Below, piece by piece: positions 17,379-17,502 of a stretch of 64,000 nt of DNA. Source of the stretch: a virus (Duplodnaviria > Caudoviricetes); the IMG/VR virus record IMGVR_UViG_3300045015_000053, one strand, 5' to 3'. How positions within the stretch are numbered: position 1 is the stretch's first letter; each line of letters begins with the position of its first letter. Made by a program: the position numbers and the translations under genes. The notes beneath the pieces were generated by a model. That model was given only the letters and a program-made list of their open reading frames with translations. It was not told where the DNA came from and did not search any database.

Positions 17379-17502
17379 GCTGGAGTGGCGCAGTGGCAGC
17401 GCGCGTAAAGTATCTCGACAACTATTGCCCTCACGGGATGCGGTTGGGATTACATTCCATAATCAGGACGAGGTCGCGAGGTTCGATTCCTCGCCTCCAG
17501 CA
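17379..17502 (+). ncRNA. tRNA-like RNA with expanded anticodon arm
   Basis: acceptor GCTGGAG/CTCCAGC, D arm GCGC-AGTGGCA-GCGC, T arm GCGAGG-TTCGATT-CCTCGC; ~50 extra nt in the anticodon domain. Confidence 0.7.

What the first reader, a model, noticed from the sequence alone, without database searches (positions are those of the whole stretch)
17379..17502. tRNA-like RNA whose anticodon arm is replaced by a ~65-nt two-hairpin domain
Seen: canonical acceptor (7 bp), D arm and T arm (6-bp stem, TTCGATT). Between a 3-bp CGT/ACG stem lie AAAGTATCTCGA, a hairpin CAACT...CCC-TCAC-GGG...GGTTG and a second hairpin GATTA-CATTCCA-TAATC. I could not find a splice that restores a canonical anticodon arm. 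Inference: an intron-bearing tRNA with an unusual junction, a mini-tmRNA-like or decoy RNA, or a tRNA-like partner of the Ro60 encoded 10 kb away.
Basis: partly seen in the sequence, partly recalled or inferred. Interest (0 to 1): 0.62.

Follow-up and report, generated by a model that had tools for sequence, protein, structure and literature searches.

The report
Mini-intron splitting a phage tRNA stem
This is a tRNA gene of a huge lake phage whose anticodon stem is interrupted by a conserved, folded 50-base insert; the same kind of insert sits in tRNA genes of well-known cultured phages, where it has been annotated as 'pseudo-tRNA', which points to an undescribed way of cutting and rejoining tRNA in viruses of bacteria.

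Summary
The anticodon arm is not replaced. It is split. Taking out 50 nt (window 17406/7-17455/6) joins CG(U) to (U)CC and gives a perfect 5-bp stem CGUCC/GGACG with a 7-nt loop AUAAUCA (U33, anticodon AAU). Thirteen uninterrupted phage tRNA-Thr genes carry this same stem sequence without a break.

The insert is a family. Two paralogs lie in this genome, and there are four more in IMG/VR and metagenomes. All fold into the same rod: 97% of cells paired, and 5 of 8 basal-helix pairs show compensatory changes.

A second structural type sits at the same site in tRNA genes of several cultured phages:
- Vibrio phages KVP40, nt-1 and F86
- Aeromonas phage Ahp1
- Synechococcus phage BUCT-ZZ01
- a 735-kb megaphage
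- Stenotrophomonas phage DLP_6, where the gene is circularly permuted

Several of these are annotated 'tRNA-Pseudo'.

There is no Rfam match, no group I core, no bulge-helix-bulge and no EndA or RtcB gene. Rnl1- and Rnl2-type RNA ligases are present in this phage and in two or three of the four others checked. The Ro60 idea is not supported.

Best reading (about 0.55): a protein-spliced mini-intron of a new class. Splicing itself is not shown.

This scan had already noted the same kind of insert on other DNA (e1-5683590, e1-5713427).

The parts
17379..17405 (+). Exon 1: acceptor 5' strand (17379-17385), U8 G9, D arm (17388-17402), G26, and C27 G28 of the anticodon stem. T 17406 may be exon nt 29 or the first insert nt.
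   Evidence: junction homology to intronless tRNA-Thr genes
17406..17455 (+). 50-nt insert (equivalently 17407-17456): single-stranded UAAAGU start, rod-shaped hairpin, single-stranded UACAU end
17412..17419 (+). Basal helix of the insert, 5' strand AUCUCGAC
   Evidence: pairs with 17443-17450; 5 of 8 pairs show compensatory changes in 7 sequences
17428..17437 (+). Apical hairpin CCC-UCAC-GGG, flanked by the invariant UUG (17425-17427) and AUG (17438-17440)
   Evidence: invariant in all 7 lake-type members
17443..17450 (+). Basal helix of the insert, 3' strand GUUGGGAU, followed by the invariant UACAU (17451-17455)
17457..17470 (+). Rest of the anticodon arm in exon 2: C30 C31 (17457-17458), loop AUAAUCA (17459-17465; U33 = 17460, anticodon AAU = 17461-17463, C37 = 17464), GGACG (17466-17470)
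   Evidence: the orthologue L089 has loop AUUAUCA
17471..17502 (+). Variable loop AGGUC, 6-bp T stem with loop UUCGAUU, acceptor 3' strand, discriminator A; no encoded CCA

Best explanation
Window 17379-17502 is a phage tRNA gene. Its body is that of a tRNA-Thr(GGU)-type gene. After the insert is removed, the predicted anticodon is AAU. The 5' strand of the anticodon stem is interrupted after nt 28 (or 29) by a 50-nt intervening sequence. That sequence folds into a rod: an 8-bp basal helix, a conserved internal loop (UUG/AUG) and an apical CCC-N4-GGG hairpin. Its single-stranded ends (UAAA... and ...ACAU) lie side by side at the anticodon stem. It belongs to a recurrent class of small structured inserts at position 28/29 (29/30 in some) of phage tRNA genes. 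The class has two structural types: a 'lake' type (this one) and a 'T4-like' type. Most likely mechanism, inferred and not shown: (1) the gene is transcribed with its neighbours and trimmed by RNase P and RNase Z; (2) an unidentified protein endonuclease, host or phage, recognises the tRNA body plus the rod and cuts at both ends of the insert; (3) this leaves a nick inside a duplex, with the 3' strand GGACG acting as a splint; (4) a phage RNA ligase seals the nick, the Rnl2 type being the natural candidate because it seals nicks in double-stranded RNA. At the DNA level the insert also breaks up the anticodon-arm sequence, which could shield the gene from the tRNA-gene-targeting homing endonucleases that earlier notes of this scan (not re-tested here) report for this phage's tRNA clusters. 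Shown here: the insert, its boundaries, its family, its fold and the presence of the ligase genes. Inferred: transcription, excision, the enzymes and the benefit.
For: Exon continuity: 13 IMG/VR contigs carry the uninterrupted sequence AGTGGNAGNGCGCGTCC-N7-GGACGAGG, all with loop TTGGTAA = tRNA-Thr(GGU). Copy A has the same sequence with 50 nt between GCGCGT and CC. Family: 3 copies in this genome, tRNA-Phe(GAA) in IMGVR_UViG_3300013121_000017, and 3 metagenome members. Fold: the same rod is predicted independently for 7 of 7 sequences. The RNAalifold consensus has 11 pairs, 97.4% of cells paired, 5 pairs with changes on both sides, and 0-1 of 500 shuffles reach the observed values; slid controls collapse to 28-56% paired. 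Exons are under tRNA-type selection: orthologue pairs A/L089 and C/L079 differ by compensatory changes in the acceptor and T stems. After removal, 15 of 15 members have U at loop position 2, and several loops are textbook: CUGAAAA Phe, CUGUUAA Asn (three times), CUGUGGA His, CUUCUAA Arg, AUCCUAA Arg. The same site is used in cultured phages with a different insert: a 6-bp hairpin with 5 of 6 pairs compensatory plus an invariant GCA. The DLP_6 gene is circularly permuted through the insert hairpin and still folds as a tRNA (MFE -54.8 kcal/mol, z = -4.7). This is expected if the rod is a processing handle, as in permuted tRNA genes of Cyanidioschyzon (own knowledge). Ligases: full-length Rnl2-type and Rnl1-type genes in this genome. 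Among the four other phages checked, BUCT-ZZ01 and KVP40 have both types and G001 has the Rnl2 type only.
Against: There are no RNA data, so splicing is not shown for any member. No endonuclease candidate was found: EndA is absent and the neighbouring ORFs are uninformative. DLP_6, a complete genome, has no Rnl1, Rnl2 or RtcB match, so a phage ligase cannot be a general requirement. This copy and its closest relatives are odd as decoders: C37 in A, L089 and B; a 6-bp T stem (7/6 instead of 7/5) in A, B, C, L079, L089, L114 and DLP_6; a Thr-type body that never carries a Thr anticodon. Paralog C has a 6-nt loop and an A30xG40 mismatch and looks degraded. The KVP40, nt-1 and F86 orthologues give an 8-nt loop. 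The ARAGORN 'spliced' test is weak: 223 of 1329 arbitrary deletions of copy A also give a tRNA call.
Confidence: 0.55

Rival explanations
1. The RNA is made but never spliced. It would be a stable tRNA-shaped RNA in which the rod is a working module, and it acts without decoding. Possible roles are a decoy or sponge for host anticodon nucleases, tRNA-modifying enzymes or aminoacyl-tRNA synthetases, or a masked tRNA reserve.
For: The insert keeps invariant sequence motifs (UUGCCC..GGGAUG, UUACAU) beyond what a mere spacer would need. This subgroup has a 13-bp acceptor/T helix and C37, both unusual for elongator tRNAs. No splicing enzyme was identified. Intron-bearing copies are redundant with ordinary tRNAs of the same anticodon in this genome.
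Against: Canonical anticodon loops with U33 are kept in all members, and purine 37 in most. That is hard to explain if the loop only caps a 2-3-bp stem. Different tRNA bodies (Phe, Asn, Arg, His, Pro-like) carry the insert at the same site, as expected for an intron and not for one dedicated RNA.
Confidence: 0.22
2. The insert is a new small self-splicing RNA, or a self-cleaving RNA that is then resealed by a ligase. The conserved rod and internal loop would form a catalytic core, and no dedicated endonuclease would be needed.
For: Conserved internal-loop nucleotides. Occurrence in phages of very different hosts (cyanobacteria, Vibrio, Aeromonas, Stenotrophomonas, unknown lake hosts). DLP_6 has no recognisable RNA ligase. 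Permuted forms are typical of small ribozymes (own knowledge).
Against: The two structural types share no common core. Fifty nucleotides is very small for two precise cleavages plus ligation. No Rfam ribozyme family matches even at E up to 10. The features that define group I introns are absent.
Confidence: 0.12
3. These are dead genes: tRNA pseudogenes inactivated by a small mobile insertion, as the GenBank label 'tRNA-Pseudo' implies.
For: They are annotated as pseudogenes in KVP40 and Ahp1. Paralog C of this genome is visibly degraded compared with its orthologue L079.
Against: Orthologues in different phages keep every stem through compensatory changes. They keep U33 loops and keep the insert fold. 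The insert always sits so that its removal restores a perfect stem. The elements persist across Straboviridae, Kyanoviridae and huge phages.
Confidence: 0.08
4. It is a tRNA-like partner (Y-RNA analogue) of the Ro60-like protein encoded about 11 kb away.
For: A weak TROVE-like match lies at window 28389-28577 (20 bits, below the 23-bit cut-off).
Against: There is no TROVE match in four other phages with the same kind of insert. No Y_RNA or YrlA match in Rfam. The 5' and 3' ends form an acceptor stem, whereas in YrlA the ends form the Ro-binding stem (own knowledge of Chen et al. 2014).
Confidence: 0.03

Closest known systems
'Enigmatic' introns of Lak megaphage tRNAs (Devoto et al. 2019, PMC6784885, Table S6)
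   Same: Inserts in phage tRNA genes whose removal restores a tRNA. No Rfam match. Conserved between phages. Mechanism unknown.
   Different: The Lak inserts are 79-114 nt, are placed in the anticodon loop (37/38 by tRNAscan) and contain a tRNA-like T arm (ggttcgaatcc). The insert here is 50 nt, rod-shaped, has no T-arm mimic, and lies in the 5' strand of the anticodon stem (28/29).
Archaeal tRNA introns at non-canonical positions and permuted/split tRNA genes (bulge-helix-bulge, EndA plus RtcB; reviewed in PMC4090602)
   Same: A small intron at a non-canonical position in the tRNA body. The same insert occurs in several different tRNAs. There is a circularly permuted gene version (DLP_6). Protein-dependent splicing is the most plausible route.
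   Different: By inspection I could draw no 3-nt bulge / 4-bp helix / 3-nt bulge motif at the junctions. No EndA or RtcB gene in five phage genomes. The hosts are bacteria.
Group I introns in bacterial and phage tRNA anticodon loops (PMC3984707)
   Same: An intervening sequence in a bacterial-type tRNA gene.
   Different: Group I introns are about 200 nt or more, have the P1-P9 core, a U.G pair at the 5' splice site and a terminal G, and sit in the loop. The insert here is 50 nt, ends in U, lies in the stem, and has no Rfam hit.
'tRNA-Pseudo' genes annotated in Vibrio phage KVP40 (NC_005083.2) and Aeromonas phage Ahp1
   Same: They are members of the same class: 113-124-nt tRNA-like genes with a 41-50-nt insert at the same site.
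   Different: They carry the 'T4-like' insert type (hairpin plus GCA motif), not the lake type. In the records and papers I could read they are labelled pseudogenes, not introns. The 2003 KVP40 genome paper is not held in the library.
YrlA / bacterial Y RNAs bound by Ro60 (Rsr)
   Same: An RNA with tRNA-like D, T and acceptor elements in a genome that has a Ro60-like gene.
   Different: The topology is opposite (the ends lie at the acceptor stem, not at the Ro-binding stem). No Rfam match. No co-occurrence with TROVE genes.

Membership tests
Canonical tRNA (Rfam RF00005) | Contiguous cloverleaf with a 5-bp anticodon stem and a 7-nt loop | tested here: not met
   As encoded, there is no RF00005 match even at E up to 10 and no ARAGORN call. 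It is met only after in-silico removal of 50 nt, and ARAGORN is permissive in that test.
Canonical tRNA (Rfam RF00005) | Acceptor stem, D arm, T arm with UUCGAUU loop, U33, discriminator base | tested here: met
   Departures from the norm: the T stem has 6 bp and position 37 is C.
Archaeal/eukaryal protein-spliced tRNA intron (BHB) | Bulge-helix-bulge motif at the exon-intron junctions | tested here: not met
   By inspection of 7 aligned members, the splice sites flank single-stranded UAAA and ACAU at the base of an 8-bp helix. There are no two 3-nt bulges separated by 4 bp.
Archaeal/eukaryal protein-spliced tRNA intron (BHB) | EndA-family splicing endonuclease and RtcB ligase available | tested here: not met
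   PF01974 and PF01139 give no match in G000, G001, DLP_6, BUCT-ZZ01 or KVP40, and the control genomes do give matches. G000 and G001 are fragments, and host genomes were not tested.
Group I intron | Conserved catalytic core (P3-P9), terminal G, U.G at the 5' splice site, length about 200 nt or more | tested here: not met
   The insert is 50 nt and ends in U. No Rfam intron family matches.
tmRNA / mini-tmRNA | tRNA-like domain plus a tag reading frame with resume codon | tested here: not met
   ARAGORN finds no tmRNA. Rfam gives only tmRNA_permuted at 9.6 bits, against a 47-bit threshold, on the T arm.
Y RNA / YrlA | Ro60-binding stem formed by the RNA ends, and linkage to an rsr gene | tested here: not met
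   No Rfam match. TROVE is weak in this genome and absent in 4 of the 5 insert-bearing phages.
Phage anticodon-stem mini-intron class (proposed here and in scan notes e1-5683590 and e1-5713427) | A 40-55-nt hairpin-forming insert in the 5' strand of the anticodon stem (28/29 or 29/30) whose removal restores a 5-bp stem and a U33 loop | tested here: met
   Met for copy A and for 14 other genes in at least 9 phage lineages.
Phage anticodon-stem mini-intron class (proposed here and in scan notes e1-5683590 and e1-5713427) | The insert is removed from the RNA (true intron) | not testable with these tools
   No transcript data are available.

The most novel reading that the evidence does not exclude
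Bacterial viruses have a third, undescribed tRNA-splicing pathway. A rod-shaped mini-intron in the anticodon stem would be excised by an unknown structure-measuring endonuclease. The resulting nick in double-stranded RNA would be sealed by the Rnl2-type ligase, which would give T4-family Rnl2 its long-sought natural substrate. The pathway would also process circularly permuted tRNA genes (DLP_6) and would turn the 'pseudo-tRNAs' of KVP40-like phages into working genes.
Probability: 0.3. Interest if true: 0.9.

Novelty: new variant of a known kind. Interest (0 to 1): 0.77.

Why it matters
tRNA introns are thought to come in two kinds: self-splicing group I introns in bacteria, and protein-spliced bulge-helix-bulge introns in archaea and eukaryotes. 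A conserved 40-55-nt insert in the anticodon stem of phage tRNAs fits neither. If it is spliced, there is an unknown endonuclease and a natural job for phage RNA ligases. tRNA counts in hundreds of phage genomes would then be too low, because these genes are either missed or labelled pseudogenes. The class occurs in cultured phages with tractable hosts (nt-1 on Vibrio natriegens, BUCT-ZZ01 on Synechococcus elongatus PCC 7942, and KVP40), so a simple tRNA-sequencing experiment can answer the question. The permuted gene in DLP_6 would be, as far as I could find, the first permuted tRNA gene reported in a virus of bacteria.

Tried and rejected
1. GGGAU pairs with AUCUC in all relatives.

2. UUACAU read as a Val(UAC) anticodon loop with a long variable arm. 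ARAGORN offers this after many arbitrary deletions. I rejected it because the flanking stem is not kept in C, D or L079, and because GGACG-AGGUC is homologous to the anticodon stem and variable loop of intronless tRNA-Thr genes.

3. ARAGORN with intron option. It finds only copy C, with a wrong intron.

4. ARAGORN on in-silico spliced genes gives 15 of 15 calls, but the deletion control shows that this test hardly discriminates. I do not rely on it.

5. Pattern scans. GCGTAAA..TGCCC-N4-GGGATG in IMG/VR gave 15 chance hits and no member. The exon-anchored intron pattern gave nothing. The metagenome scan gave 81 loci, of which only 3 are members.

6. BLAST of 1.9 kb around the locus against cultured phages gave no match. 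Only the short RNA queries led to DLP_6 and, from there, to BUCT-ZZ01 and KVP40.

7. Neighbouring ORFs give no splicing-related Pfam or PHROG family.

8. No own sigma-70-like promoter lies next to the gene.

9. Literature searches for phage tRNA introns in the anticodon stem, permuted phage tRNAs, or a link between Rnl2 and tRNA introns found nothing relevant.

10. Two KVP40 genes (tRNA-Pseudo-4 and -5) carry a related insert in or next to the anticodon loop. I could not fix their junctions.

Full report
**Setting.** The window is G000:C1:105123-169122 of a 188-kb IMG/VR record, estimated 37% complete. Earlier notes of this scan describe it as a huge lake-water phage. ARAGORN finds 50 tRNA genes in the record. 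The finding lies in a gap of about 180 nt between two same-strand ORFs. It has no promoter-like site of its own.

**Observation.**
- a 7-bp acceptor stem
- U8 G9
- D arm GCGC-AGUGGCA-GCGC
- a 6-bp T stem with loop UUCGAUU
- discriminator A

Neither ARAGORN nor Rfam recognises it. Even an Rfam search of 400 nt at E up to 10 returns only a 9.6-bit permuted-tmRNA match on the T arm.

**It is a family.**
- The same genome holds two more copies in a tRNA array, at G000:73327-73454 (B) and 73993-74119 (C).
- A pattern taken from the shared motifs (UUGCCC-N4-GGGAUG ... UUACAUU) finds one more in IMG/VR. This is copy D in IMGVR_UViG_3300013121_000017.
- The same pattern finds three among 81 metagenome loci: L079, L089 and L114. 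The other 78 are chance matches without any tRNA frame.

**Where the anticodon arm is.**
- In D, removing 55 nt gives CUCCU-CUGAAAA-AGGAG, a textbook tRNA-Phe(GAA) arm.
- The same operation on copy A removes 17407-17456 (or 17406-17455; a T on each side makes the two equivalent). It gives CGUCC-AUAAUCA-GGACG.
- This is not an arbitrary choice. Thirteen IMG/VR contigs carry the uninterrupted sequence AGUGGNAGNGCGCGUCC-N7-GGACGAGG, all as tRNA-Thr(GGU). So copy A is that gene body with 50 nt inserted between GCGCGU and CC.
- The other members give loops CUGUGGA (His GUG, L079), AUAUGGA (L114), AUUAUCA (L089, the orthologue of A) and AUUCCCA (B). C has a 6-nt loop and a mismatch, and looks degraded next to its orthologue L079.
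- I tested the ARAGORN 'spliced' calls with a control. Of 1329 arbitrary deletions of A, 223 also give a call. That test is therefore weak, and I rest the case on junction homology, perfect stems and U33.

**Fold of the insert.**
- Single-sequence MFE predictions give the same architecture in 7 of 7 members: a single-stranded UAAA(A) start, a basal helix of 8-11 bp, a large internal loop with invariant UUG and AUG next to an invariant CCC-N4-GGG hairpin, and a single-stranded (U)ACAU end.
- On the alignment, RNAalifold predicts 11 pairs. 97.4% of cells are paired. Five of the 8 basal pairs change on both sides. 0-1 of 500 shuffles reach the observed values. Sliding the partner by one column drops pairing to about 55%.

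**The same site in cultured phages.** BLAST with the short RNA led to Stenotrophomonas phage DLP_6. From there it led to Synechococcus phage BUCT-ZZ01 and to many T4-like Vibrio and Aeromonas phages.
- BUCT-ZZ01 has two adjacent genes of 113-114 nt. They become tRNA(CAU) and tRNA-Asn(GUU) on removal of 41-42 nt after nt 28 or 29.
- KVP40 has five long tRNA-like genes. Three of them are the GenBank features tRNA-Pseudo-3, -4 and -5.
- nt-1, F86, Aeromonas phage Ahp1 ('tRNA-Pseudo') and the 735-kb uncultured phage LR756501 have further members.
- Their insert is a second structural type: an A-rich start, a 6-bp hairpin with 5 of 6 pairs compensatory, an invariant GCA, and a tail mostly ending in CAU.
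- The sequence at the 5' junction is nearly always CG|UA.
- The two types share no common core, but they do share the site. DLP_6 combines the T4-like insert with the Thr-type 7/6 body of the lake group.

**A permuted gene.** In DLP_6 the 3' half lies upstream of the 5' half.
- The 3' half runs: insert 3' part, CC-AUCCUAA-GGACG, T arm, CAUCACC-ACCA.
- The 5' half runs: GGUGAUG, D arm, CG, insert 5' part.
- The two acceptor strands match 7 of 7. The break is in the loop of the insert hairpin. The 25-nt spacer forms its own hairpin.
- The 157-nt stretch folds as a permuted cloverleaf at -54.8 kcal/mol (z = -4.7; 0 of 200 shuffles fold as well).
- Joined in silico, it is called tRNA-Arg(CCU).
- This is what one expects if the rod is a processing handle whose loop is dispensable.

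**Enzymes.**
- No EndA-type endonuclease and no RtcB turn up in G000, G001, DLP_6, BUCT-ZZ01 or KVP40.
- Rnl2-type ligase genes are present in four of the five. In G000 the gene is at C1:93552-94511, inside the tRNA-rich region.
- Rnl1-type ligase genes are present in three of the five. In G000 the gene is at about C1:169844-170932.
- DLP_6 has neither ligase type, which argues against a universal need for a phage ligase.
- After excision the break would lie inside the anticodon-stem duplex. By established biochemistry of T4 Rnl2 (own knowledge), that is the preferred substrate of that enzyme. This is an inference.

**Rivals.**
- The Ro60 link fails on co-occurrence and topology.
- tmRNA, group I and bulge-helix-bulge memberships each fail a defining feature.
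- A non-decoding, unspliced RNA remains a serious rival for this subgroup because of C37, the 13-bp acceptor/T helix and the redundancy with normal tRNAs.
- Pseudogenes are unlikely, given the compensatory evolution of the exons.

**Literature.**
- The nearest thing in print is the remark on 'enigmatic introns' in Lak megaphage tRNAs. Their Table S6 shows 79-114-nt inserts in the anticodon loop that contain a T arm, which is a different design.
- A paper on the KVP40 relative phi-pp2 only mentions 'pseudo-forms'.
- I found nothing on anticodon-stem introns or permuted tRNA genes in phages.
- The 2003 KVP40 paper is not held.
- Earlier notes of this scan (e1-5683590, e1-5713427) describe the same kind of insert on other DNA. 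I did not see their sequences and reached the cultured phages independently.

**Verdict.** This is a real, conserved, structured insert that splits a phage tRNA anticodon stem. It is most likely a new class of protein-spliced mini-intron. Splicing is unproven, and the enzymes are unknown.

Noticed in passing
L021:572-728 (Stenotrophomonas phage DLP_6, KU682439.2 about 113169-113325): A circularly permuted tRNA-Arg(CCU) gene. The 3' half, ending in CCA, lies upstream of the 5' half. The break is in the insert hairpin loop. The stretch folds as a permuted cloverleaf (z = -4.7). It is unannotated in the record, and this complete genome has no Rnl1, Rnl2 or RtcB match.
   Followed up: partly
L026:7333-7455(-), L025:295-415, L024:295-413 (KVP40, nt-1, F86): After the insert is removed, these orthologues keep an 8-nt anticodon loop AUUCAUAA (ARAGORN reads a 4-base anticodon UCAU). 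It is conserved in three diverged Vibrio phages, so a quadruplet-reading or frameshifting tRNA is possible.
   Followed up: no
window 17476-17494; also copies B, C, L079, L089, L114 and DLP_6: The T stem has 6 bp, so the acceptor/T helix is 13 bp (7/6) instead of 12. The intronless tRNA-Thr genes with the same body are 7/5. The intron-bearing copies of this body never carry a Thr anticodon.
   Followed up: partly
G000:C1:73993-74119 (L002:2158-2284): Paralog C has a 6-nt loop AUGUGA and an A30xG40 mismatch. Its metagenome orthologue L079 has an intact His loop CUGUGGA. C is probably decaying.
   Followed up: partly
L026:6968-7091(-) and 7102-7214(-) (KVP40 tRNA-Pseudo-4 and -5), with homologues in F86 and nt-1: A related insert lies in or just after the anticodon loop: Pseudo-4 reads AAAGA-AUGUUAA-[insert]-UCUUU, an Asn GUU loop. 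The junctions of Pseudo-5 could not be resolved.
   Followed up: partly
G000:C1:91126-94511 (L123:127-3512): An Rnl2-type RNA ligase gene sits inside the tRNA-rich region. It is preceded by a 445-aa protein with an N-terminal HAD phosphatase-like domain and an uncharacterised C-terminal part (phrog_3980). This protein could be an end-healing enzyme.
   Followed up: partly
window 28389-28577: A weak, sub-threshold TROVE (Ro60-like) match inside a 601-aa ORF. Its identity was not confirmed here.
   Followed up: no
window 17349-17372: A hairpin CCCGAA-N9-UUCGGG lies directly upstream of the tRNA 5' end, between the stop codon of the upstream ORF (17346) and G1. It could be a processing or termination element.
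   Followed up: no
window 14108-14659: A phage ORF with an OGFr_N (opioid growth factor receptor N-terminal) domain match, E = 1.6e-13. This is unusual for a phage.
   Followed up: no
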